This document shows positions 1-57,990 of a DNA stretch of 64,000 nt, piece by piece. Where the stretch lies: positions 1,322,442 through 1,386,441 of the forward strand of contig NMRA01000006.1 of NCBI GenBank assembly GCA_002633005.1, in the 5' to 3' direction. Below the pieces are notes generated by a model. It was not told the origin of the DNA. It saw only the letters and a list, made by a program, of their open reading frames with translations, and searched no databases. The DNA is from Phoronis australis (Eukaryota; Animalia; Phoronida). Made by a program: the position numbers and the translations under genes. Each line of letters begins with the position of its first letter. Positions within the stretch are counted from its first letter, which is position 1.

Positions 1-78
1 ATCTGATTTAGCCAGCCAGCTGGCTGTGTGTATGAAGACTGTACCAAGGCTACATTACGTCATCAACACAACTCTTAC

Positions 79-405
79 TTTCAAAACATTCTTGAAGGTG
101 ACTTGTTCAGGTTTCAAACCTCCAACAGAGTCGTAAACTGTTTTCGATTCTTTGATGAGTTCGTCCGTTGCCTTGGCGATGTCATCCACAGTGAGATTCC
201 ATTTCATTCGGTTACCAGGACACGACATGTCGAAGAAAGTGTTTAAGCAAAGCGGTGCACAATTGCTAAGACGTTTCGAGCAAGGGAACTGGTTACAGTG
301 AGAAGGCAGAAAGTACGGTTTGTCGAGTATCGGCTTGCGACAGGAACTAGTGAGAGTGGAACGGAATGCACTTCGCAAACAGAGAACTACACCGGACAAT
401 GCCAT
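79..405 (-). CDS. First coding exon of a thimet oligopeptidase/neurolysin (THOP1/NLN-like, peptidase M3) gene; rest of gene lies left of the window
   Basis: Translation ...NRMKWNLTVDDIAKATDELIKESKTVYDSVGGLKPEQVTFKNVLK resembles the THOP1/NLN N-terminus (LRWDLS...TxELI...K.VYD.VG.....V.Y.N.L). It ends at a GTAAGA donor (78-77). ATG at 405 precedes an Arg/Ser/Leu-rich leader; a second in-frame ATG is at 228. Confidence 0.82.
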
Positions 406-5936: not shown

Positions 5937-6134
5937 CTAAATATCCTGGGAAGAGGCACTTGTTGACGTCCCCTTGCGATCTGAGTAATCGCTACTCGAT
6001 GACCTCACCAGTCCTGGTTTCAAGCAAACGGAGTTCCCTGGAAAACTACAATACGTCTTGATCACCATTTGGGCAAACGTTGGATTATATCCCTCTTTAC
6101 CGACAAGAAAATATGTCTTCAGTTCTACCAAACC
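5937..6134 (-). CDS. PstS-domain receptor guanylyl cyclase-like gene, coding exon 5 (last)
   Basis: Acceptor ttttgttacag (AG at 6136-6135), phase 0. GLVELKTYFLVGKE matches the cyclase C-terminal KGKG.M.TYWL.G motif. TAG stop at 5939-5937. Confidence 0.8.
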   Translation of the reverse strand, partial: GLVELKTYFLVGKEGYNPTFAQMVIKTYCSFPGNSVCLKPGLVRSSSSDYSDRKGTSTSASSQDI

Positions 6135-7165: not shown

Positions 7166-10100
7166 CAGTGCTGTAGTGGTAAAATTAGAGGTAAGTAGGC
7201 GCCCAGAGCCCAACGCATCACTTTGAGCACTGTACGTAGGCGCTACGCTCAAATGTCAAAAGGTGGTTGGCTGCGTCTATATGCACCTACGCCCCGCTAC
7301 AGCATTGCCCGACTCACAAAAATGTAGGCCTATTTTTGACTCAGGAGTGAGTGTTTAGAGTATGTACGGTAGCTGATCTAGGATATCGGGGAAAAGGGAT
7401 CCAACCACACATATTCGAAGGCAAAAGTAACGCCTAGAAATTATATTTGGTGGCGATTTTTAGTCGCCCGAGGGGGCGTGTCCTCGGGGCACTTCGATCT
7501 CCCTTTATCCACCTATGGTGTGACGCAATAAATGTTACTTTATCTTGAAATGTTAATAAAAAAATTCATTACTAGATGAGATTATTAATTAAATCAGTTT
7601 TGGCCACAATAAGATAAAAAACAGGACGATCGCCGCACAAATAAAAAAGTTCATGTTCAATTCAACGTTTCGTCTTTTCATTAGACATCAGGATCATATT
7701 TACAACAATTTAGGAAACAAGTGCCAACATACAGGTGAGGTTATGTTACTACGCACTCTTCAAATACTAATTACACGAACACGATGTTACACAAGCAACT
7801 GGTATTTAGTGAGCTTAACAAATAGTATGTACAATACGCACACGTGCATGCGTTAATGTATAATGCACCAACTTGGAGTGTGGGTTTCTTGCAAGCAACT
7901 GTTCTTATTTTTTAAGTTTGCAAAATACTAGGTACTAGTGACCAGTCCAAAGATAGAGTACTTAGTTACGGAATCCTCCACAAACTTATTTTATTGTCAG
8001 TTTTGTTCTTTTCCAAGTCACATGATCTCGATTGAGAACTATCAGCTGTTCCGTGTTGTCGAATCCACGTTTTGGCATAAGGTTGTGGGTCAAACATGGA
8101 AAGCGGGGGACCATTGACCTTGCCAAAAAGCAAGCTGGAGGTGGTTTCTAATAGCAAACAAGAACGAGAGTCTGTTACTGTCCGCGATTCATTTTGTTGA
8201 ATCCTCGTTCACATTCAGCTGTTCTGCAAGGAAGAGTCTTAATACAGAGGTCCATTTGTCGCAGAGCACTTGGTAGGTTATTCCCTCTAACCGTTTCCTC
8301 CATTTCTATGAACTCGCGCATTCCCCTGATTGCCGATGTGGCAACCAACCCAAACCGTTCGCAAAGCCGCCTGACTTCGTGCTGGCCATGTCTTATCCCG
8401 GATCCCAACTGCCGCGTTTTGGGTTCCAAAATGCTGAAACAAGAGCAAAATGACTGCTCATCATTGTCAAGTAAACGCTGTTCCAGCTTCACAACAACAC
8501 TTTGAATAAACTGACCAGGGTGTATGGCCACGGTAGTTCCTTTAAGGGTTTCCTTCAGTTCCAGTGACACAAACCTCTTCTCTTTAATGCATGTCAGTGC
8601 AGTGGCTAATGCCTGCTCGGGATTATCAACCATAGACTTGAGGACGCGAACCGTCCAACAAATAAGCTTGTTTGCTTGCGGTATTGTTGTGGTTCTGCAC
8701 TGTAGATCCACAGAAAGGCTTGACAGCTCTTCTAGCACATCATGCATCAGCGCAAGATTCTGAATGAGCCGGGTGGGACTTTCCAAGTATAGCAGTAATC
8801 CCCCCAAAAAATACTCCGATCACTTGAACGACGGTTTCCGTTTTCACTGGCTAACTCTAAAGCAGTGCCATGTCAAAAGTCTAGGGAAGCGTTCGCGTAA
8901 TGTTGCAACTCCAGAATGTTTTCCTGTCAAAACACTGGCGCCGTCACTTGCAAATGCTCCTGTAAATATTCCATCGTAAAACCACAGTGTTGTAGACTGT
9001 TAAGGAGGGACGCTTCAATGGATTCGGTAGTTTGTTGTTCAAGCTGGACAAGGTCAAGCATTATAAAAAGTGGATCGCTATCACCAATAGATGCTCTTAC
9101 GTAAATGGTCAGTGCTTACCGTTGTCGCTTCACCGACTAACACAACTTTCTTGCTGTTTTCTGCCATAACTGTACTGACGATTTTTTCGCGCATTTGCTT
9201 GGTTATGTGCTTGATTATGGACGTTGCACTGAAACTTGAATGGAGCGTAACACCCAAATTCAAACCATTCAGTTTCTGAAGATTTATGAGATGCTCGTGA
9301 TCGGTGAACGGACGATTTATTTGAATAAGTGAATATGCTGTTCTGAAGACGTTTTCCGTTGTGGTCTGCTCATGAGCTGCAACTTTAACCAATGTATTTT
9401 CAATTGCTCTTTACTTTTCGTTTCGTCAATACTTTGAGCAATGTTGTGGGCTTTAGAGCTCATATGACGACTGATTTCACTCCTGAACGACTTTTAAGTT
9501 TAGAAAGTCGGGAATCTCCAGCTGCTTCTATCAGAAAATGTGCCCACTTCGAAGATATTGATACGACACTTTCTTTCATCAAACCTAGGTCTAGTACAGT
9601 ATAGCAAGAAAAGCAACCCAGCTTTCCATCCTTGTGTCCCAACCAGGTATACTTTTTCTTGAATTCCATCCACTGATCGTAATTCCACACGCGTGGTCAC
9701 TGTGACGAGTCATCATCTGGATCACCTGCAGATATTTCCGTTTCAGACGTGGAGGGACCCGTTTCAGGAATACTAGTTTCAGCAAATGAGTCACTTTCAA
9801 CAGGAGGATTTGGTCCCGTGCTTTCTGATATCGGCATCTTCTTAAAATATTTCAGTACCGATTGGCAACAAGCTGATTGTCGTTTCATAGCGGCACAAAA
9901 TTTAAAAGCCCTCAATTAAACTTATAATTCGGTAGCAATAGTTCGTCTCGTTTGGACGAGTCCATTACAATGACCAGCTGCAGAAACCGCGTGCACTTAA
10001 AAGAGCAAAGTAAGACTGGTGCTGTTTTTGATGTTTGCCAATACCTCATCGAAGCATGCCTGGTGGTCGCGCGCGCCGAAATGTTCGGCAACAATGCTGT

Positions 10101-10941: not shown

Positions 10942-11604
10942 CTGTTCTTGAATAGACAGTAGGTTGTTTTCCACGCAGACTTTTTCCTTGTACAAAATCT
11001 TCCAACCTGACATCTTATTCTTTAGCAGTTCGCATGTACTTTCCGACACCAATATCTTCCCTGTTGCAGATTTACTTTCTAAAAGACACGCTAACGTGAA
11101 AGTATCCCCAAAAACGGCGAAATGGGGAACTTTGAGCCCAACGACGGCTGCCACTACCGACCCGGTGTGTATAGCGATACGCATCTCCAGCTGTGTCCGC
11201 TTCCGTCCACGCATGTGAAACTTGTTAAACGCTGACTGGAAGTCGAGTGCCATGTTGCAACACTCTTCCGCGTGTGTCTGAATGCTCTCGTTGGGCACAC
11301 CAGAGATGTAAATGACGGTGTCAGCGATGCTCTCAATCTTTTTTATGTCGTGTCGCTCCGCGATCACATCCATAACGAGGTACATGTCGTTGACTAGCTC
11401 CATTATAGCGGACGGATGGTAAGTGGCCACTATTTCATTGAAGTTGACAGCACGGGCCACGAGGAGACTAGCCTGCGTGTATGACTTAGCTTGTACCGTT
11501 TGCCCCTCAGTGATCTGATCAGCGATAGTAGGTGGCAGTATGTCATGGAGGATGTTCTGTACACTCGTTATCGCTTCGGCTAACTCATCCACTTGCGAGT
11601 CTAC
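10942..11604 (-). CDS. PstS-domain receptor guanylyl cyclase-like gene, coding exon 4: signalling helix and class III cyclase domain (catalytically degenerate)
   Basis: Acceptor ccacag (11606-11605), donor GTATAT (10941-10940). LHDILPPTIADQI..GQTVQAKSY...KIESIAD...SGVP...HAEE...MALD...LEMRIAIHTGSVVAAVVGLKVP...FGDT aligns with receptor GC catalytic domains. Confidence 0.9.
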
Positions 11605-11884
11605 CTGTGGATGACAATCAACATAGCCTGCAACATTATATGCACGATTAGTTGTGAGTTTCAGTGTACGTGTTGAGACCGAGATCTTTCGTATGTGTTG
11701 CATATGCTCCAAAAATTAATTGATTCGCTGAAAGGCAGGTTTTCTGTTATTTGCTGAGTGTCGAGCCACTTCTAGCCTAAAATGATCATGTTCTCTCTGG
11801 ATCTTTTTGTTTGGGTACCTCAGTAATTCTAACGCTGTCACGAACAGCGAGGTATTTGTGACGATGCCGACAGTGGAAGTCGGG

Positions 11885-12268
11885 TGATGGTGGAGCCAGC
11901 AGGAATGGTGGTAGTGGTAGTAGTGATGGTGGAGGCAGCAGGAATGGTGGTAGTGGTAGTACTGATGGTGGAGGCAGCAGGAATGGTGGTAGTGGTAGTA
12001 CTGATGGTGGAGGCAGCAGGAAAGGTGGTAGTGGTAGTAGTGATGATGAAGACAGCGGTGGTGGTGATGGTAGTGGCAGGATGGTGTTGGTAGTGCTGGT
12101 GGTGGTAGAGATGATATGGTGATGATGATGATGATTATGACAGTAGTGACGGTGATGTGTTGACAATAGGGATGCTGGTAGTGGTAATGGTTGTATTGGT
12201 GGCGATGACGGTGATTATGATGATGGTGATGACGGTGATTATGATGATGATGATGACGGTGATTATGA

Positions 12269-12302
<34 letters not shown>

Positions 12303-12345
12303 GATGGCGACTTTAACAACGGTGCTGATGGCATTGACCAAAATG
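11885..12345. repeat. 39-bp minisatellite (~4 copies) grading into (GAT/GGT)n trinucleotide microsatellite, intronic
   Basis: Unit gatggtggaggcagcaggaatggtggtagtggtagta(c/g)t repeated, then long gat/ggt runs. Confidence 0.9.
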
Positions 12346-12417
12346 ATAATTACGATGTAGCGTAATGTATAACAAAATATTGCTAATTTTTTTCAATGGA
12401 GAAGCAAAGATAAGCAC

Positions 12418-12699
12418 TTTCTGCTCCAACTGAAGAACGTAACTCTCCAGCGCTTCCATCATAGTGTCGAGAACTGTTTTCTTTGAAGGATGTGCGTTAC
12501 TGAGGATTTTAAGCAGCTGGGAGAAGGACGGCCTTTTCAGGGGCTCTTCATCCCAAAGTCTAGTCAGTATGCTTCTGACTAAGCTGGGAGTCTCCGGCCG
12601 GATCATTGGCCTTAAGCTGGCCTTCTTGATCTCTTCGACAATGTCCTGGGGTTGGAGCTCATCGGCCATTTCTGAGTAAGGATCCTCTCTGGTGAAAAC
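12418..12699 (-). CDS. PstS-domain receptor guanylyl cyclase-like gene, coding exon 3: C-lobe of kinase-homology domain and start of coiled coil
   Basis: Acceptor tttcgcag (12701-12700), donor GTGCTT (12417-12416). VFTREDPY...RP...LWDEEPLKRPSF...VLDTMMEALESYVLQLEQK matches rGC CW.E.P..RP.F and ILD.....ME.Y...LE. Confidence 0.88.
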
Positions 12700-17573: not shown

Positions 17574-19233
17574 CTCCTGTATTAAAACACCAAAACTGTA
17601 TAAGTCTGACTGCTTGGTTGTCATTACTCTGTCACACAGGAGGAATTCTGGCGCAGTCCAGAACAACTCTTTGGCAAAGAGGTTAGGATGCTCATTTTGG
17701 TCGTACAGAGCCACGCAGGGCGGCGTCAATGGTGGCTGTAAGTTTTGGACTTCGAGCAGTTTCGTGAACTCCCAATCCTTGATCTTTACAGTCCACTTTT
17801 GGTCGACGGCGCAGGCAGCTGCTCGGAGGTACCCGTGTACAATGTCCCTCGAATGTAAATACAACATGCCGCACGCAACGTCTTGTATGAGCGAAAACTT
17901 GAAGTTGTTATCGAACGAAAACTTTTCGTTTGTTAAAATGTCTTTAAGTATTCCCTTAGATGAGTATTCACGTACCAAATATATCTGGTCGCTATACGTT
18001 GTCAGGCCGTAGAATAATTGTACGTTTGTGTGCTTTACGTTATTTCTCATCCACAAAACAGTAGCCATGGTGTCCCTATATAAAGTACCGATGTCTCCCA
18101 AGTCTATCTCTTTCAGCACTACCAGCGTCTCCTTCCACCTGCCAACGACGTCGTCGTTCTCGTCAATGGAACTTCCACCAATGCTCGCCTTCTCCAAGGC
18201 ATCACCGGTATGAGCAAGGTCAGTTTTGTCGGCAAAGGCTTGATGAGTGGCCGCCTCGGAGGTCCATAGCGTGTGCTTCTGAACCTTTACAAAACGTATA
18301 TCTGACGCAGGGATAAGCCACTCTTGACTTTGTATTGCTCTGGCAAGTTTCATTTGCTTTTGTATCAGATAGCAAAGTATAAGTGCCATAGCGACACCGA
18401 TGACGGAGGAAATTGCTGCAACTGGGACACGCCATGCTTGCGTCGACGCATATTCTTTGCTTTTTTGTGTGAGAACGAGTTGATAGACACTTTGTCCTTG
18501 GCAGGCATAGTTTCTAAACATGTAGTCACGGACTCGATTATTGAAAGATTTGCTGAACTCGGTATAGTTGAACATTTTGATAATGTCGTTGGCTTCTGAT
18601 GTTGTCATAAACCATTCGACGAATCTCGCCAGTTCCGTTGCGCGGTCGCAATCACATGACGATTTAGCGCGAATGACCATGAACAGTACGCTCACTAAGG
18701 GATAGGAATCGTTACCGGAAGCATCTATAGTTTTGTTCAATGTTGGTCTTTGGTCGGGCTGTATTTGGACTACGCTTTCGACCGTATGTCTCAAGATGTC
18801 GTTATGTGGCCACACTCTATGGCCATTCCTGTTTATTAGCATGGCAATCGAAATTCCAGAAGTATGAGCCACGGCACATGGTAGATACCCAATGGTGTAT
18901 TCGACAGAACTCAGAATACCTACAACACCCACGCTACCTTTGGCGTAGTACGCTGCCACGCCTTCCTTCCAACTGTTTGCATCCGAGAACGTTCCCTGTG
19001 TCCAATTTTTACTGAATTTGTCCAACGCGTAAGTGAAGCCGCGCGTAGTACCCGAAGAATGTTTTCTCACCACAGTTCTTATTCTCTTCTTAGGTAACGG
19101 TGTTATTGTGTTATGTTTCGATATCGCGTAGGTGTTCCACCACTGGATGTGGCCGTTGAAAATGCCCGCGATGGCCTCGCGCGAAAGAGTTAAAGAGGAG
19201 CGATTCGGTAAATTATACCCGACAACTGTCGCC
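17574..19233 (-). CDS. PstS-domain receptor guanylyl cyclase-like gene, coding exon 2: rest of PstS-like domain, TM helix and most of the kinase-homology domain
   Basis: Acceptor tttgcag (19235-19234, phase 2), donor GTAAGG (17573-17572). PstS motifs VVGYNLP, LSREAIAGIFNGHIQWW, VVRKHSSGTT, KGSVGV, IGY, SYPLVS. TM VPVAAISSVIGVAMALILCYLI (~18364-18429). rGC-type pseudokinase motifs GMLYLHS..VHGYL, KIKDWEF, WTAPEFL, SDLYSFGVLIQE. Confidence 0.92.
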
Positions 19234-20226
19234 CTGCAAAACATAACGGATGTCATTCATGGAATGGCGTGCATCTACAAATCCTAACTTTTCTAGTTCG
19301 TGTTTAGTTCACATAGCTTATTAACCAGTATTTTTTGAAACAGTTGGTCAAAAACAGTGGGGTCATTTTCAGTAAGTAGGTGAAACAAGTGAAAATCCTG
19401 GATCCGCCCCTGTGTCAAACCTGACGTCAGAAATCGTTGGTCATGGTAGCATCGGTTTACTGTGGTAAAAATTATAAGGACCGGCCAGTCCAGAATACCT
19501 AAGCATCGCAATGGATGTTCTGGAGGGCCCTGGAGTTTTCCTAGCAACGGAAGTAAACTCCTTTCATGGCCAGGAACTTTCTGAGACTAACTTTGTGGGG
19601 GTAGTACCTAATTTAAGTGGTCTATTTTTATTTAGAGTTAAGTTGGGCAGGACCTTATCAAGAAATCTGTAAATTCAACCAAATATCTACAAAAAGATTG
19701 GTTTTGACTCAAGAAAAGTACGTACTTTCTAAATTTAGAAATTATGTAGAAATTGATTCTTGATTTTAGACAAGTCTGCCATACACGTATCATTTTGATA
19801 CATTCAGTATCAGCAACGTTAATTTACATAATTGTAAACATTCAACCTAAAATCTTAAAAATTCTATCACATTTTTCTAGATCATCGTTTCGTTTTCATT
19901 TAATGCAAATTTAAAGTTTTCCATAAAAATTCATTTTTGATAGCCCGTGATGCAAAAGAGGAAATTTTTAAGATAATTCCTAACAACGTTTTGGTGAACA
20001 TTGAAAAACATACATAAAGTATGTGAAAGTTCATATGAATCCAAGCAGCCATTTCTGAGATGTGATGATCAAAGGTTAGCCAAACTTGAACATTTTTTTC
20101 TAGGGTCCTGCATAACCTTAAGCTGGAGGAAATGCAGTTAAAATCTCGTTCGCTTGCTGAAAATTATCAGCGACTCACTTTTTGGAGCAACTTCCACTGA
20201 AAATTTTTTAACATTTGATTACCTAC

Positions 20227-20579
20227 CCGATGAAAATTGGAATGTAGAGGAACTTGTCGCTGTAATCATGAGTCACTACCATGGGATCATTTGATAAAGA
20301 AAAGTCAATATTGCAGTCCGAAAATGTGTCCTCGTTTAGCATTTTAAAACCAGCCGTGCTTCCAACTGATTTGTATCGAAGCATTACTTTTCTGTATTGT
20401 CTTCTAAACGCCATGAACGCCGCCGCCATACTACTGAAGGCGGTCGCGCCAAATGTGGCGCCCGCCCCAGAGATGTCCGTGTAATCCGTAGGTTCCCTAC
20501 CATGGTGCCCAAAATTATTACCACTTGCTATACTGCCTTTTGTTAACACGCCCATGAGACATAAAAGCTTCAGGTTCAT
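20227..20579 (-). CDS. PstS-domain receptor guanylyl cyclase-like gene, coding exon 1: putative signal peptide and PstS N-terminal lobe
   Basis: MNLKLLCLMGVL... then ISGAGATF, YKSVGSTAG, IDFSLSNDP, IPIFIG, matching PstS TGAGATFP, YQ.IGS.GG, VDFGASDAP, FP.VIG. Donor GG|GTAGGT (phase 2) matches the exon 2 acceptor phase. Confidence 0.88.
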
Positions 20580-24401: not shown

Positions 24402-24888
24402 CTGAAAATGAGACATTGAAATTGAATGCAACTGTTGTGGCACTTATTAAGTAGGAATTTCTAATAGAACCTATGAAATCAACAAGAGTTCTACATGACT
24501 CGCCACAGCATTGGCTGAAACACCAGCACGGATTCATATCCACCTCATACGACAACATCCACCAACAACTCATGGGTACGAGTGTATTGTAACTGTGCCT
24601 CTTTAAAACATCTGTTCACACCAGAAAGCAACAGTCTTGTACACAAATAATTAAACTATAATGCTCTACATTGAAAAGTGACTGGAAATCAGAAACACAG
24701 AGGTGAACCAATTCCTTTCATATCAGAGCCAGGCACTTGAATAAGTGTCTCAGCTACGACCATAGCAAACTCATGTGGCTACATCATAGCGGATAGCTCA
24801 GTTTTGCTGTCATTACTAGCCATCGAACAAGGAGCAGACATCAAGGGACAATCTTGGCCCAAATTGCCAACAACTTCGCGCAGTTTAC

Positions 24889-24993
24889 CTTTACTCCTGC
24901 AGCCGCTGCCGGTCCCTGAGGATCCACCGTCTGTACGTACGTTGGACTGTCGCCGCGGACAACAAAACCATAACCAACGGAGTCACTAAAAAT
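24889..24993 (-). CDS. DEPTOR: DEPTOR-like gene, exon 8: PDZ N-terminal half
   Basis: Acceptor cattgcag, donor GTAAAC; IFSDSVGYGFVVRGDSPTYVQTVDPQGPAAAAGVK vs DEPTOR IVGDAVGWGFVVRGSKPCHIQAVDPSGPAAAAGMK. Confidence 0.92.
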
Positions 24994-27256
24994 CTGCAAT
25001 GACAGATTACCGAGGTAAAACGACACATTTTGAAAAGAGCAAAACATGGGTGTTTGACCAATATTGATTCTTCTGAAGTGGATTTCTGGTACAAATCGGG
25101 CGCGTACGTGGTGATATCTTGCGTCTACTGAACGCAACCCATTGCAGTGTATTACACTTGTTTACAGCACTTTATTGTTTATTTATTTATGTTTTGGAAG
25201 GCAATTGCCAATTGCTCCTTTTCTTCATTTCTGAATCCCAAGGACGGTCACTTTTTAAAATTTAAAAAATGTCTGTCAGTCACGAAATTGCCCGCGAGCA
25301 ACAAGTGAAATTTCGATGCTTTTGTTTTTCATTGGTGTTCACGCCGTCCATTTACTAGATGTACGTAAGCCAGCACTAATGTGTACAAGTCTCCTACCGA
25401 TTAAAGCGTCGTATTTCGTGAAAATGCACGCCGTTCCGTCGATTCTAAGCCGGATGTTATGCCACATCACATTGCATGCGTAGTATTACCTTAGGCCAAA
25501 AGAACTGGTACCTCACCCTGGCATAGACCCATTAACTCACGCGGCGGACATTAAAATCCAAAGCGAGGCTCACTGCGATAAACAAAGCGGAAGTTGACAT
25601 TGCCCGATTTAAATGGCCGGTCTTTCGAGTCCAACCTGGATATTAAATCGTAAAAATGTGCCAATAATTAACTACAGAGACGTAGATAAATACATTACAG
25701 AACAAGTCAATGCACCAAAGAGTTGTCTGACGAAATGATACAATGTTTTTCGGATAATTAGGTTCAAATCATAAAAAGTAAATGTGACCAAATTGCGGCG
25801 ATAGTAGTGTTACGGATTAGGAATTATGGTGAATGCAAGGTTACGTTTCTTCTGGAAATTGTTGATAATGCTTTCTACACGAACCAGGTCATCTGCTCGT
25901 ATTGTTGACGAGTAGAAGATATATTCGACAGTGGTGGCTCATCACATTTTGCTGTGATGTGCAATTAGTCACATCTGGTTTAATTTGTTGATCAAGCATA
26001 GCCTATGTCCAGGTGAGGTAGGGACTACCGGGACTAATAGTTGATTTGTCATTGATCTGACAGAATAACTGATCTTATTAAATACATTTTTATTAAACTA
26101 AATAACCAGGCTGGTAATTGAAAATAAAAATTATATGAAAATCAATTCTGCTTTCTTGGTTTTAATAATTCTTACGTCTATTTGGTGTGTTAGGTTTCAA
26201 ATATCAATCTGGACCAAGTTGAATTTTAAAATTAAAACACCTAATTCGTTCGTCTACAGCATAATCTCGTTTTAGATCTCAATTTCAGTTAACTGGACAG
26301 AGCAAACATAGTTATCATGTTTCTTCAGGGGCATCGTTATCCGAGGGGAAAGGTGCCTATGTCTTCTGAGAGGGGTATTTTTTCGCCGAGTGAGGGGACA
26401 AATCTACCTCCCGGTCACCATCAATAGCACACCCGCCCTGTTGCAAGTTCTCATAGGCACTGTCTCAAGTAGCATTTTGTGATCTTTCAAATTGTCACCT
26501 GTGGGGTTACGTGAACTTCGAAGAGAAATTTTCAATCACTAGTAGAATTTTCAGGGGGGGGGGAGGAATTTCGCTTGATTTTTGAATATTTTGAGTGGGG
26601 TATAGGGACGATAATCGGACCCTAAATCGAGGAATTGAGAGCCCTGTTCGTTGTGGAATAAATGCATCATGTTTCAACCCGTAGTCATGAAAACACAGCC
26701 TGGCTGGCCGAAGATTCCCCGGTTGTTGCTTTGAGGCTCGGCAACCGAGATGCAACAAAGTATGATCTAACTTTTCAAAAACATTTATAAATTTTACACG
26801 GACATATTTTCCTTCGTGGCAACGACCCAACGCTTCCGAATCTCAACGTCCTTAGGGATTGTAAAACAGGCAGTTGAATGTCCGTGTTCTAGCCGTTCGT
26901 GCAACGCGGAATACAACTATGCGGATAAGCAAACGGAATTACCGTAGCGAGCTTCGTTTTGGAACGCGGCCTCCTATCGGCGTGAATTAGGTCTACTGTG
27001 GATTACGCAACACGTGCAATTTGTGAGGTCGTGTTTTTATAAACACATCTAAACTCTGATAGTTTACGTTTCATAAGTTCTATAGAGTAATATTTCGTGA
27101 CAACATAAGACGATCGAAGTAGGAAAACGTAAAATGGGAAAAATAGGAGACGATTGAAGCAACCACAAACAACCTCATCAGCGAGAAAACATGGCGCATG
27201 CCCACTTGAAAACATTTTTATGAAAGTTGTTGTAAGTACTATATCTGCATCTGTAT

Positions 27257-36540: not shown

Positions 36541-36804
36541 CTGTGAAATAAAAATGAAAATATCTGAAAGTTTTAACAACTAGCAGTACACTCAACACTC
36601 TTATTTCTAAACCAAGTCACTTTAAGAAACCGCGGTACCACTGAAAACCCATTTTGAATCAAAAAGGAATTAAAACAAATTTGCACTTTTTGAATGAAGG
36701 CCTAGCGCAAATTTCCTTTACAATATCGGGATTAGTGACGTTATAAATACTATGAGTACGTCGACCAAATGTTATTTCAGTCACGTGACTGCCACCATAG
36801 TTAC

Positions 36805-36989
36805 CATGGTGAAGGACGTTGTGTTCTTGGAGGACTCTCATTAGGCACACTGCTGTCTTGCGGTCGTCAACTTCCCTCTGTTCCAACAACCAATCTACCG
36901 CTTCGTTGCCAACAAAGCATGTCGTGTACGTCCGAAAATGATAGCGACGATCTTTGATCAGCTCTCTGACAGATTGGTGCATTCGTAAC
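36805..36989 (-). CDS. DEPTOR: DEPTOR-like gene, exon 2: first DEP domain
   Basis: Acceptor atatttag (phase 2), donor G|GTAACT; LRMHQSVRELIKDRRYHFRTYTTCFVGNEAVDWLLEQREVDDRKTAVCLMRVLQEHNVLHH vs DEPTOR LRLHEEKVIKDRRHHLKTYPNCFVAKELIDWL. Confidence 0.93.
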
Positions 36990-37443
36990 CTAAATATGCG
37001 AACTGCTCGTGAATGCATTTGGCTGCGAGCGCGAAGGTTCGGGTTAGAATACGCGCTAGGGCTGCTTTCAAAAGAAAATCGCCTTTCTTGACAAAAATGT
37101 CAATTTATTAGAGATTCACTTTCTACAGTAGTTGAAGGAGAAACCCCTTATCAGATGATATTTTATTATGTCCTCCACAGAAATATCCATTTAGTTCATT
37201 TAATTGTTCCTTAGACACTTACTCATTCCTAAATAAATTGAATTGTAAAAGTGGGACATTGGCTCAGATGTGGCGATTTCTCAAAAACCTGACGGAACAA
37301 AGTTGCATTCCGTTTTCTCTCGTAATGTGATAAGAAAAGCTCAATAATATCAGTTACCTATTAGCGAGTGTGAAATATTTTCCCTAGATTTTGACCAGAG
37401 AATGCGCATATACGACTAACTGAAAAATCTTGCTTTGGTTTAC

Positions 37444-44827: not shown

Positions 44828-46636
44828 CAGTGGCGGATCTAGGATATCACAAGGGGGGGGNNNNNNNNNNNNNNNNNNNNNNNNNNNNNNNNNNNNNNNN
44901 NNNNNNNNNNNNNNNNNNNNNNNNNNNNNNNNNNNNNNNNNNNNNNNNNNNNNNNNNNNNNNNNNNNNNNNNNNNNNNNNNNNNNNNNNNNNNNNNNNNN
45001 NNNNNNNNNNNNNNNNNNNNNNNNNNNNNNNNNNNNNNNNNNNNNNNNNNNNNNNNNNNNNNNNNNNNNNNNNNNNNNNNNNNNNNNNNNNNNNNNNNNN
45101 NNNNNNNNNNNNNNNNNNNNNNNNNNNNNNNNNNNNNNNNNNNNNNNNNNNNNNNNNNNNNNNNNNNNNNNNNNNNNNNNNNNNNNNNNNNNNNNNNNNN
45201 NNNNNNNNNNNNNNNNNNNNNNNNNNNNNNNNNNNNNNNNNNNNNNNNNNNNNNNNNNNNNNNNNNNNNNNNNNNNNNNNNNNNNNNNNNNNNNNNNNNN
45301 NNNNNNNNNNNNNNNNNNNNNNNNNNNNNNNNNNNNNNNNNNNNNNNNNNNNNNNNNNNNNNNNNNNNNNNNNNNNNNNNNNNNNNNNNNNNNNNNNNNN
45401 NNNNNNNNNNNNNNNNNNNNNNNNNNNNNNNNNNNNNNNNNNNNNNNNNNNNNNNNNNNNNNNNNNNNNNNNNNNNNNNNNNNNNNNNNNNNNNNNNNNN
45501 NNNNNNNNNNNNNNNNNNNNNNNNNNNNNNNNNNNNNNNNNNNNNNNNNNNNNNNNNNNNNNNNNNNNNNNNNNNNNNNNNNNNNNNNNNNNNNNNNNNN
45601 NNNNNNNNNNNNNNNNNNNNNNNNNNNNNNNNNNNNNNNNNNNNNNNNNNNNNNNNNNNNNNNNNNNNNNNNNNNNNNNNNNNNNNNNNNNNNNNNNNNN
45701 NNNNNNNNNNNNNNNNNNNNNNNNNNNNNNNNNNNNNNNNNNNNNNNNNNNNNNNNNNNNNNNNNNNNNNNNNNNNNNNNGGGGGGGGGGGGGGGCCCGG
45801 GCCCCCTGGGCCCCCCCTAAATCCGCCTATGACCCCAGTAGGCTAATTAATATTATACGGCTTAAACAAGATTTAAATGTGTGCAATTTTAGTGTGTTTG
45901 GGTGGGGGCTCACATTCAATTGCAAGTGTCAAATTCGGAACACGGCGCAATCGTGACGGAACTATGGCTAAGTATAGGCTCTCCCGCGATATCACAGACG
46001 ACCGGCAGTGGCGCTGCACACTACGACTCCGTTTCCGTCGTCTTCTTCACTATGCAATGAAGAAAATTACTTCATTTTTTAAAGAAAAATGGAATCTGAG
46101 TAACGATGCAAAAACAGAATCTGCTGGTAAGATGTGAATTTTAATAGAAGCCTTAGTGAATCACTCAGAAACTCATAATCTTCTCTTTTTCAAACCTTAA
46201 CTTAAGACGATTTCCAGAGCATTCGCGTCATTAACACAAAAACGGATTTGGTCTTTTGGGCAGGTGAAGACTATTTTAAATACAACAAATTTGTTACGAA
46301 CTGATTGCACAAAATATAGAAAGTGTAATAAACATTACAAAAAGAATTAGGTTTTGCGCGCAAACGCTGTGGATCATAAACAAGTAAGTCTCTTAGAATC
46401 AAATTACGAGTGAAAGCGTGGTGGTGCTGTAGTAAAGCACGCGCCCTCTATCCGCCAGGTCGTGAGTTCGAATTTGTGGTCATTGCATTTTTTCAAGTTT
46501 GACACGTTCTCCGTGTTTTTTTTCTTGGATAATACTTCAGGAATCAAGAAAAATGCGCATCTACAATCGTGCTTTGCGCAAATGTTTACAGACAAAATGT
46601 TGGGCCCCCCTTGTGATATCCTAGATCCGCCACTGG
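44828..46636. mobile_element. hAT-like MITE termini spanning the assembly gap
   Basis: cagtggcggatctaggatatcacaagggggg at 44828 and its inverse cccccttgtgatatcctagatccgcccactg ending ~46636. No TSD confirmed and the interior is partly Ns. Confidence 0.45.
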
Positions 46637-55535: not shown

Positions 55536-57990
55536 GTGCCCGGTTGCATGAAACAGTCCCTAATAAGGGGCATAACCAAGTTTCCAAACTAGTTAAGGGA
55601 AGTCCCTATGAGGATTTTGTTTAAAGACTGTTGCATGAAGTGGTCCTATACTCGATCCTTATTGGGGCTCCCTAAACCAGAAGTTCTCAAAACCGAACAA
55701 TCCCGGTGATCGCCGTGGCTAAGGTCGCGTAATATGGCGAAAATTATTATAAACGAGAGAATACCTGTCGCATTTACGTCCTCTGTCCCACCTTTTTAAT
55801 GGTTGTTCGAGTAGAGTGCACAGTCAATGTGCATTATCTGAGAGTTAGAGTTTTCTACTGCTGTTAAGAGAACAGACGATCGACTGCGGCCGCCCATGCT
55901 GATGTAAAGAAACAGTATGGCGGATAAGAGAAAAGCGCGGTTCAGTGACGCCGAAGTGAAGGCCATTATAGAGGGATAGCGAAAACAAAGGTACATGTAT
56001 ATTGATCTCCAACCTGAAGACTACCGCGACGAATAAGCGAAAGCTGGCGGTGTGGCAAAATGTCACCGACAACGTGTTTTTATTTTATTATTAATTTGTC
56101 ATTCTGTGATGGTTGTCTTTCATGTGGCAGACGACCGTGACACCCCATCATGACTTACGCAGTTGTGAATTAGGCCTAACGGTGTCACTGTAACAACTGA
56201 ACGAATCGCAGTTTAGCTTGAAATGGCATATATCACATCTCTTATCTGATTTTCAAAATTCAAAAAGGACATATAACCTGCAAACTTCAGAAAGGTGCAG
56301 CTATGCAATTTAAGAATTTTCAAAATGAACATTTCCAAAATATACTTGTTGTCCCGGGCCCTGTGTTTACAACCGTGAGGGGTAGTTTTGCACAAGTCGA
56401 TATCCAGAGTTGAAGCTCGGGATGATTTCTTTGAAGACGGGTTGGTTTTAAGGTTAGGGACTGTTAACCTATTATGTCATCCAAGATTATCCAACCCTTA
56501 CCACCCTTCCCAATTTGCGATCATCTGTCGTTATGACCTACCAGCTGTTCAGCCTCTACATGATTACGTTTTTCACAGTCAAATCCCCTGTTTTTGGAAA
56601 ACCCGATAATTCCTTGGAGATCCCGTTTTCACGATTCTAATTACACACAAATGCCTTTTTATAAGCGCGGGTTGCAATTGCCGCTGTTAAAACAACAACA
56701 ATGAAATAAAGTACAACATTTCAACTATGAAATCGTATTGTGATGGAGATAAACCACAGGATAACATCACCAGGAGTCGTCCCCCTCCCACTGTCAACTC
56801 ATCGTCATTCTTTCCACCCATCCACCCCCATCTCTAGTAATGCCGTGACATGTGAACGCTCCCATAGCGAGTGGTACGAGTATTGGAATGGGAATGGTTT
56901 TATGAAGTCCAGTTTTCGGTGGCGTATTAGCTTTCATCATGCGAAGTGTTGTGTGTACTAATGTACATGTATCTCTCTTTAGCTTTACCGCAACAGATGT
57001 ATCCATGTTATGACCATGGGGTGCCTCTGCTGCGGCGCCTGGTGGAATATCTGGGCCGCCCATTTCTGGCCATGTTATGTAATACGCAGCAGGCAATGGC
57101 AATTGACTATCACAAGCTCCTCCCCCTTGCGTAGTGTCGAGTAACAAACGATAAAATTTACTCGGCGACGTGTTGTTTGTTGGGTAAAATGACGGCTTAG
57201 AAACGAAGGTGTGTCAATAATGATGCGTTCTGAATGGTCAGTTACGCCGTCACTCAAAATCCTGGCGATAGGTCAATTTTACAGGCTCTGCAAGGCTGGT
57301 ATCTCAGCTCGTGGAGGCAACTGAAAAGCCGCTTCAAAATACCGTTACATCGTTCGATGATAGACCTCGATCGATGGAGCAAAGTTGTAGGCATCTTGAC
57401 TAGGGGTGGTCACATTCACGAATGGGGAAAGCAGCCTGAGTCGCCTAGGATGATGCCGTCGAAAGGCAACGGGCGCCTCTCGAATTGTTCCCAGACAGCT
57501 GACTCTCAAACTTTTCGCGTCGTGAACGCTCCCGGGAAACTTTGCTACTACATTCATAACTCGCAAAGAAGCGTCACAAATTAATTGTACATTCATGCTG
57601 TGATAATTTTTACGATTCAGATACTCGTGCTCATTTACGTGAGGAACTTGTATCCGGACGTGTGTGCCATAAATTCACCCAATAACACAGGGGAAGTGCG
57701 CCATTTGAAAAAACACTTGCTTGTCATGTTGAATCAAAGCAAGGTCACCAAATTTGTTCCAAGAGGAGCTTATCTCTACCAATGCATCCCTCACCCGATG
57801 AATTATTCTGCACACCTTAAACTTGTGTACATTCACGGTGTCGCAAACAACGATTTGGTGGCTGCCAGTTGCGTAAATCTTAGAGCGAGCAATACCTACA
57901 AAATTTTTACAAAATATCTGCTGATGCGATTGGTGTGTGACATAATGTTAAGTAAGAACCCGGCCAAACTATTCTAAGGCAAATTGAAGA
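55536..57990. mobile_element. Decayed PIF/Harbinger transposon: Myb/SANT gene (+) and HARBI1-like transposase (-)
   Basis: Terminus gtgcccggttgcatgaaacag; + strand MADKRKARFSDAEVKAIIEG* from 55917; - strand VLLALRF.ATGS..., FPCVIG*IYGTHVRI...YLNRKNYHSMNVQLICD...AKFPGSVHDA, TIERCNGILKR.F.CLH. Confidence 0.85.

What the first reader, a model, noticed from the sequence alone, without database searches (positions are those of the whole stretch)
10942..11604. Cyclase domain is predicted dead, giving a pseudokinase plus pseudocyclase receptor
Seen, by eye against the rGC consensus: first metal-binding Asp (FSDIVGF) is Arg (VARAVNF); the guanine-specifying Cys (RYCLFG) is Ala (HFAVFG); the transition-state Asn and Arg (VNTASRMES) are Thr and Leu (FTLACLLES). 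Only the Glu and second Asp (ETIGD -> ESIAD) remain. Established: each class III site needs two Asp from one subunit and E/C/N/R from the other. Inference: this subunit can supply neither half, so even a heterodimer with an active rGC should be impaired. Yet the long ORF is intact, which suggests a decoy, dominant-negative or scaffold role, e.g. ligand-dependent damping of a partner cyclase. The kinase-like domain also lacks the catalytic Asp (HGY) and DFG (DWE), as usual for rGCs.
Basis: partly seen in the sequence, partly recalled or inferred. Interest (0 to 1): 0.75.

Follow-up and report, generated by a model that had tools for sequence, protein, structure and literature searches.

The report
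Phosphate-binding-type receptor with dead cyclase
This expressed animal gene encodes a receptor with an outer part like the bacterial phosphate-catching protein and an inner cGMP-making domain that has lost most of its catalytic residues, as have most of its relatives in molluscs and worms, so it likely senses phosphate or a similar ion and passes the signal on without making cGMP itself.

Summary
Observation confirmed. 10942-11604 is exon 4 of a five-exon, 1,051-aa animal gene: signal peptide, PstS-type ectodomain, one membrane helix, pseudokinase, coiled coil, class III cyclase. Against NPR1, metal Asp1 is Arg, Cys is Ala, Asn is Thr and Arg is Leu; Glu, Asp2 and the triphosphate Arg remain. 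RNA reads carry these codons and splice all four introns in two runs; a third has none. It is not decaying: substitutions are more conservative than all 400 neutral simulations, and the fold and dimer are predicted intact. It is not unique: 35 of 45 scorable relatives with this architecture lack a complete site, including all 11 named mollusc proteins, while pseudokinase and phosphate-site residues stay conserved. Ten paper searches found no description. The scan noted this family before in an octopus gene (e1-8670190). New variant of a known kind.

The parts
20227..20579 (-). Coding exon 1: signal-peptide-like start and first part of the PstS-type domain (GAGATF, SVGS, DFSLSN); a 5' UTR runs on upstream to about 21150
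   Evidence: (PF12849 E 5.4e-07); intron 19234-20226 spliced in 27 and 24 reads, upstream depth 15-20
20289..20291 (-). Asn97 at the place of PstS Asp56
17574..19233 (-). Coding exon 2: rest of the PstS-type ectodomain, membrane helix, most of the pseudokinase
   Evidence: (E. coli PstS, E 4.3e-16)
19047..19067 (-). RKHSSGT, the phosphate-binding loop (PstS Arg135, Asp137 -> His176, Ser139, Gly140, Thr141)
18363..18428 (-). Single transmembrane helix, about aa 387-408
   Evidence: only stretch with 19-residue hydropathy above 1.6
17574..18149 (-). Kinase homology (pseudokinase) domain, exon 2 part; HGY for HRD, DWE for DFG
   Evidence: (PF07714 E 5.5e-25)
12418..12699 (-). Coding exon 3: end of the pseudokinase and first half of the coiled coil
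   Evidence: both flanking introns spliced in 31-35 reads per run
10942..11604 (-). Coding exon 4: second half of the coiled coil and the degenerate class III cyclase domain (the finding)
11452..11454 (-). Arg816 in place of the first metal-binding Asp
11320..11334 (-). Glu856 and Asp860, kept (ESIAD)
11179..11181 (-). Arg907, triphosphate-positioning Arg, kept
11083..11124 (-). His926, Ala928, Thr935, Leu939 in place of Arg, Cys, Asn, Arg
5937..6134 (-). Coding exon 5: last strand of the cyclase fold (GLVELKTYFL), Ser-rich tail, stop

Best explanation
This is an expressed single-pass receptor whose cyclase domain is predicted to be catalytically dead, and which likely binds phosphate or a related oxyanion outside the cell and likely signals without making cGMP, through its conserved pseudokinase and dimer scaffold. 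Shown: gene structure, splicing, run-restricted expression, loss of Asp1/Cys/Asn/Arg, cyclase-specific divergence with fold-keeping substitutions, and conservation of the pseudokinase, coiled coil and 7 of 8 PstS phosphate contacts. Predicted: the cyclase fold and its head-to-tail homodimer. Inferred: ligand closes the two-lobed PstS domain, the change passes through the helix to the pseudokinase dimer as in receptor guanylyl cyclases, and the output is a change in partner binding on the pseudokinase or dead cyclase dimer. The partner is unknown.
For: Sites. Expression. Of positions at least 90% fixed among 10 intact relatives, this protein keeps 28 of 30 in the pseudokinase, 13 of 15 in the coiled coil, 37 of 77 non-catalytic ones in the cyclase; degenerate relatives keep a median 83%, 60%, 32%. 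Identity to intact relatives: pseudokinase 35% (33% among them), coiled coil 46% (47%), cyclase 34% (62%). Neutral-drift simulation to the same identity: stop-free in 2% of 400; mean BLOSUM of changes -0.54 (max -0.17) against -0.05 seen; hydrophobic kept 0.60 (max 0.76) against 0.83. AlphaFold2 pLDDT 88.8, TM 0.86 to the GC-A cyclase. Homodimer model score 0.68, best of 3 controls 0.00, runs agree in 97% of contacts, pLDDT 75-76; the mark was reached by 7 of 16 animal pairs and 0 of 30 eukaryotic single chains, and a pass may be memory of solved cyclase dimers. Family: 35 of 45 lack a complete site; one all-degenerate group of 22 (SH-aLRT 100) holds mollusc, nemertean and leech proteins, another of 13 (96) holds molluscs; degenerate cyclases share only 18% identity with each other while their pseudokinases share 36%; none of 11 named mollusc proteins is intact.
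Against: No activity, ligand or partner was measured. This protein's coiled coil and cyclase are closer to intact relatives than most degenerate members are, which suits pairing with an active paralogue. Both acidic residues of the PstS site are changed here (Asp56 -> Asn, Asp137 -> His; no relative scored has either), so the ligand may differ from phosphate or binding may be weak. Loss at catalytic positions (3 of 8 kept) is no greater than at other fixed cyclase positions (37 of 77, p 0.72): it is relaxation, not targeted switching off. The simulation starts from modern sequences and ignores indels.
Confidence: 0.45

Rival explanations
1. Regulatory subunit: it pairs through the coiled coil with an intact PstS-type (or other) receptor cyclase and lowers or retunes the partner's cGMP output, possibly depending on ligand.
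For: Coiled coil as close to intact relatives as they are to each other (46% against 47%, 13 of 15 fixed positions); dimer fold predicted; both cross-subunit sites would be incomplete (roles in PMC2576301); intact family members exist (10 of 45; Owenia, Priapulus named). Dominant-negative catalytic-Asp mutants of GC-A are recalled, not found.
Against: No paralogue in the window; genome not held; interface positions not better kept than others (p 0.46); most degenerate relatives have drifted to about 23% cyclase and 31% coiled-coil identity with intact members.
Confidence: 0.3
2. Weak or unusual catalysis: Arg816 replaces one metal, and with Asp860 and Arg907 a site completed by an intact partner (or by substitute residues) still turns over some nucleotide.
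For: Glu856, Asp860, Arg907 kept; no indels in the core and fold intact. Active mycobacterial cyclases with non-canonical residues such as Rv1900c are recalled (paper not held).
Against: Both halves are hit, with the P-loop-like Gly (Asn819) and ETIG Gly (Ala859) also changed; no substitute pattern is shared by the degenerate relatives, 20 of 35 of which keep 0 or 1 of 8 positions.
Confidence: 0.1
3. Pure decoy or clearance protein, like NPR-C: it binds ligand at the surface and the inner domains only serve folding and trafficking.
For: Ectodomain binding loop conserved in degenerate members (Arg 27 of 27, Gly 26 of 27 with data); intron 3 appears retained in a minority of reads, which would drop the cyclase.
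Against: Pseudokinase kept at 28 of 30 fixed positions, more than a sink needs; an inorganic ion is a poor target for clearance by a receptor (inference).
Confidence: 0.08
4. Decaying duplicate or a cyclase domain drifting without constraint.
For: Long branch (0.96-1.55); no relative above 36% identity, so dN/dS could not be computed; of two common alleles in the exon one is silent and one changes Asp794 to Asn.
Against: 1,051 open codons, four spliced introns, depth about 40; simulation rejects neutral drift; close pairs of degenerate relatives keep 64-92% cyclase identity in 5 of 5 pairs with pseudokinase identity of 82% or more.
Confidence: 0.05

Closest known systems
Receptor guanylyl cyclases (human NPR1/GC-A; PDB 9bcv, 9bcs)
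   Same: Single-pass layout with pseudokinase, coiled coil and class III cyclase fold; best sequence and fold match.
   Different: Ectodomain is PstS-type (PF12849), not ANF_receptor; Asp1, Cys, Asn and Arg of the active site are lost.
Half-site subunits: C. elegans ODR-1/DAF-11, soluble guanylyl cyclase alpha/beta, adenylyl cyclase C1/C2
   Same: Cyclase domains that lack catalytic residues and work as dimers (PMC5225109 and PMC8815786, passages).
   Different: Each of those supplies one complete half so that the pair is active; this protein supplies neither. Two relatives (P0086, tardigrade P0099) do look like metal-half subunits.
Bacterial PstS phosphate-binding protein (PDB 1ixh, 1quk)
   Same: Fold family and 7 of the 8 phosphate contacts listed in PMC6549937 (passage): Thr10, Phe11, Ser38, Arg135, Ser139, Gly140, Thr141.
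   Different: Fused to an animal receptor; Asp56 is Asn and Asp137 is His.
Protist receptor kinase-cyclases (Acanthamoeba and giant-virus type; Nutomonas P0142)
   Same: Extracellular domain, one helix, kinase and cyclase domains (PMC4053784, passage); PF12849 plus kinase plus cyclase in P0105 and P0142.
   Different: The Acanthamoeba proteins have two kinase domains around the cyclase; the passage does not name the ectodomain and I did not read its supplement.
NPR-C clearance receptor (recalled)
   Same: Natriuretic-receptor relative that makes no cGMP.
   Different: NPR-C lacks the kinase-like and cyclase domains altogether; here both are kept as folds.

Membership tests
Receptor guanylyl cyclase | Ectodomain, one membrane helix, kinase homology domain, coiled coil, class III domain in this order | tested here: met
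Receptor guanylyl cyclase | Kinase homology domain without the catalytic Asp | tested here: met
   HGY in this protein; HG followed by a non-Asp-bearing motif across the family
Receptor guanylyl cyclase | Complete catalytic set: two metal Asp, Glu/Cys, Asn, Arg | tested here: not met
   3 of 8 scored positions kept
Receptor guanylyl cyclase | Makes cGMP | not testable with these tools
   needs an assay
Complementary half-site subunit (sGC alpha or beta, AC C1 or C2, ODR-1/DAF-11 type) | Keeps one whole half: both Asp, or Glu/Cys/Asn/Arg | tested here: not met
   Asp1 lost in one half; Cys, Asn, Arg lost in the other
PstS-type phosphate-binding domain | PBP_like_2 domain, closest solved relatives PstS | tested here: met
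   exon 1 alone scores only E 0.07-1.6 but all 14 hits are phosphate-binding proteins
PstS-type phosphate-binding domain | Phosphate-contact residues including Asp56 | tested here: inconclusive
   7 of 8 kept; Asp56 is Asn, and second-shell Asp137 (role recalled) is His
PstS-type phosphate-binding domain | Binds phosphate | not testable with these tools
   needs binding assay
PstS-ectodomain receptor cyclase family of protostome animals (unnamed) | PF12849 + helix + pseudokinase + PF00211 in one chain, related over the whole length | tested here: met
   31-36% identity over the ectodomain and kinase part
Pseudogene | Stops, frameshifts, no spliced RNA, or neutral substitution pattern | tested here: not met

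The most novel reading that the evidence does not exclude
Molluscs, worms and their relatives have a dedicated family of cell-surface phosphate receptors built from a PstS domain on the receptor guanylyl cyclase chassis; the ancestral members make cGMP, but most have become doubly dead (pseudokinase plus pseudocyclase) receptors with a cGMP-independent output, and this copy, having lost both acidic residues of the binding site, has been retuned to another oxyanion such as sulfate or a phosphate ester.
Probability: 0.2. Interest if true: 0.85.

Novelty: new variant of a known kind. Interest (0 to 1): 0.58.

Why it matters
How animals sense extracellular phosphate is an open question (own knowledge). 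This family offers a direct test: intact members (Owenia P0021, Priapulus P0040) should give phosphate-dependent cGMP in cells, and the degenerate majority, including this gene, would show what a receptor guanylyl cyclase chassis does without its enzyme. Databases label these proteins 'atrial natriuretic peptide receptor-like' or 'guanylate cyclase', which hides both the ectodomain and the dead site.

Tried and rejected
Whole-genome search for an intact paralogue: no genome held; none in the window. Word-indexed searches with the cyclase exon (9 hits, all distant) and exon 2 (1 hit) found no close orthologue; the full HMMER search topped out at 36%, so no dN/dS. Polymorphism: one silent and one missense allele near 45%, three changes at 2-10% that may be errors; too few for pN/pS. 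Run X8 (contigs) gave nothing, which proves nothing; no indexed RNA holder was listed. Independent loss in this gene: two LG trees place it among intact members without a starred branch, the mixture-model quick tree places it beside the large degenerate group with support 56 (the careful search did not finish). One origin for all 38 degenerate rows is rejected (p-AU 0.004), but one origin for this gene plus the two large degenerate groups is not (p-AU 0.57, likelihood 3.45 higher); I therefore do not claim an independent loss. Targeted loss of catalytic residues and special conservation of the dimer interface were both tested and not supported. Papers on Rv1900c, cyclase mutagenesis and PstS mutants were not held; PMC2447327 gave no passage for my terms; PMC12155690 gave one passage on a different kind of dominant allele. 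Look-ups of earlier findings by sequence and place were blank.

Full report
Gene. The window is animal DNA with introns and repeats; no whole genome is held. The finding, 11604-10942 on the minus strand, is one exon of a gene with five coding exons: 20579-20227, 19233-17574, 12699-12418, 11604-10942 and 6134-5937, together 1,051 codons without an internal stop. Pfam gives PBP_like_2, a kinase-like domain and Guanylate_cyc; one hydrophobic helix lies at about aa 387-408. Stranded RNA reads from runs X5 and X6 cover the exons about 40 deep and skip introns 1-3 in 24-35 reads each; 48 and 33 reads run from 10942 into the exon at 6134. Run X7, same species label and study, has no read on the exons although it covers the window's repeats, so expression is likely restricted by tissue or condition. 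About 18-19% of each run was read.

Observation. The alignment to human NPR1 confirms each change: Asp1 to Arg816, Cys to Ala928, Asn to Thr935, Arg to Leu939, and also Arg to His926; Glu856, Asp860 and Arg907 remain. PMC2576301 (passages) assigns the two Asp and the triphosphate Arg to one monomer and Glu, Cys, Asn, Arg and the loop Lys to the other, so neither half is whole. The loop Lys is ambiguous by alignment and probably lost when the alignment is anchored on the intron (my reading). The reads carry the same codons; Arg816 even has a silent allele at 46%.

Selection. Of positions at least 90% fixed among 10 intact relatives, the protein keeps 28 of 30 in the pseudokinase, 13 of 15 in the coiled coil and 37 of 77 non-catalytic ones in the cyclase. 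Its cyclase is 34% identical to intact relatives, which are 62% identical to each other, while its pseudokinase and coiled coil show no such drop. The cyclase has thus been released from catalysis. It is not drifting freely: in 400 simulations of neutral drift to the same identity, 2% stayed free of stops and none reached the observed conservative pattern (BLOSUM -0.05 against a maximum of -0.17; hydrophobic kept 0.83 against 0.76). AlphaFold2 gives a confident cyclase fold (pLDDT 88.8; TM 0.86 to GC-A). A homodimer model passes (0.68 against 0.00 for the best of 3 controls; 7 of 16 animal pairs and 0 of 30 eukaryotic single chains reached the mark), which may reflect memory of solved cyclase dimers. 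Two results go against a neat story: catalytic positions are not lost more than other fixed positions (p 0.72) and interface positions are not kept more (p 0.46).

Family. HMMER over 1.84 billion representatives gave 117 proteins at E up to 1e-30, best 36% identical; I examined the 150 listed. 45 had ectodomain, kinase part and at least 150 residues beyond; I dropped 6 with incomplete cyclases and the protist P0142, added 11 from an alignment search, and dropped 4 more incomplete ones. Of the 45 left, 10 keep all 8 positions, 5 keep both Asp only, 30 keep neither half; alignments of the most diverged domains are uncertain at single positions. I looked up 30 proteins for names and took 7 more names. 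Named intact: Owenia, Priapulus. Named degenerate: 11 mollusc proteins (Haliotis three, Gigantopelta three, Argopecten, Mercenaria, Bulinus, Liolophura, Patella), Tubulanus, Helobdella, and the tardigrade Paramacrobiotus (both Asp kept). Trees on the non-cyclase part show an all-degenerate group of 22 rows (SH-aLRT 100) and one of 13 (96). The place of this gene is unresolved, so its loss may be its own or shared with those groups. The ESM Atlas holds a 57-member PBP-plus-kinase cluster, commonest Mollusca among 14 with a phylum (score 0.95).

Ectodomain. It matches E. coli PstS (E 4.3e-16). Of the eight contacts listed in PMC6549937 (passage) seven are kept; Asp56 is Asn, and Asp137 is His. 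Relatives keep the loop whether intact or degenerate (Arg135 in 9 of 9 and 27 of 27 with data); Asp56 is Asp in 11 and Glu in 1 of the 12 complete members that cover it, and position 137 is Asp in 38 of 46 and never His. Phosphate is therefore the likely family ligand, and this copy may be retuned. That Asp56 discriminates against sulfate, and that the Asp56Asn and Asp137 mutants in the PDB still bind phosphate, is recalled; the papers were not held.

Mechanism. I favour a non-catalytic receptor whose output runs through the pseudokinase and dimer scaffold (0.45), because across the family constraint stays on ectodomain and pseudokinase while the dead cyclases diverge from each other to 18%, and no named mollusc protein is intact. 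Damping of an active partner (0.3) remains open, since this protein's coiled coil is still like that of intact members. Residual catalysis (0.1), pure decoy (0.08) and decay (0.05) follow. I put about 0.9 on the homodimer making no meaningful cGMP.

What is known. ODR-1/DAF-11 form an obligate pair in which each gives essential residues to one site (PMC5225109, passages); adenylyl cyclases keep a degenerate regulatory site (PMC8815786, passages); the usual receptor layout is in PMC1435932 (passages); Acanthamoeba has 67 receptor kinase-cyclases (PMC4053784, passages; its supplement, unread, may name PBP ectodomains). Searches for PstS or PBP with guanylyl or guanylate cyclase, for phosphate sensing with cGMP and for inactive or pseudo-cyclase receptors listed no paper on this family by title or abstract start; the library lacks most subscription journals. 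The scan's own unchecked note e1-8670190 describes the same family from an octopus gene with a disabled enzyme; I had reached the family, site and dead-cyclase counts before reading it, and it is not independent evidence.

Verdict. Real, expressed, selected and very likely enzymatically dead; typical of an apparently undescribed receptor family rather than a lone oddity. New variant of a known kind; interest 0.58.

Noticed in passing
window 11605-12417 (intron 3): Stranded RNA depth of 2-10 inside this intron, against about 0 at the sampled parts of introns 1 and 4, suggests 10-15% retention; read-through would stop at 12313 and give a receptor without the cyclase. The intron holds His/Thr-rich triplet repeats.
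   Followed up: partly
window 20289-20291 and 19059-19061: Both acidic residues of the PstS site are changed (Asn97, His176), unlike every relative scored; possible ligand shift.
   Followed up: partly
P0086 and P0099 (tardigrade): Relatives that keep both metal Asp but lack Asn and Arg, like soluble cyclase alpha subunits; candidates for complementing heterodimers. P0086 is sister to intact P0073.
   Followed up: no
   Followed up: no
P0105, P0142, P0120, P0058: PstS-type domains fused to kinase, cyclase or TRP-like domains in other eukaryotes (P0142 is Nutomonas), so the ectodomain may predate animals or have been gained more than once.
   Followed up: no
window 36662-37099 and 24844-25161 (-): DEP-domain exon (PF00610) and a PDZ-like exon by eye, likely a DEPTOR-like gene upstream on the same strand.
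   Followed up: partly
window 58-290 (-): Exon that looks by eye like the start of a thimet oligopeptidase or neurolysin gene (recalled; no Pfam hit for this piece).
   Followed up: no
window 8175-9410 (-) and 57348-57947 (-): Broken transposase-like pieces: one inside intron 4 (no Pfam hit), one Harbinger-like with DDE_Tnp_4. Intron 2 is full of high-copy repeats.
   Followed up: no
window about 44860-45780: Assembly gap; the window holds 922 N.
   Followed up: no
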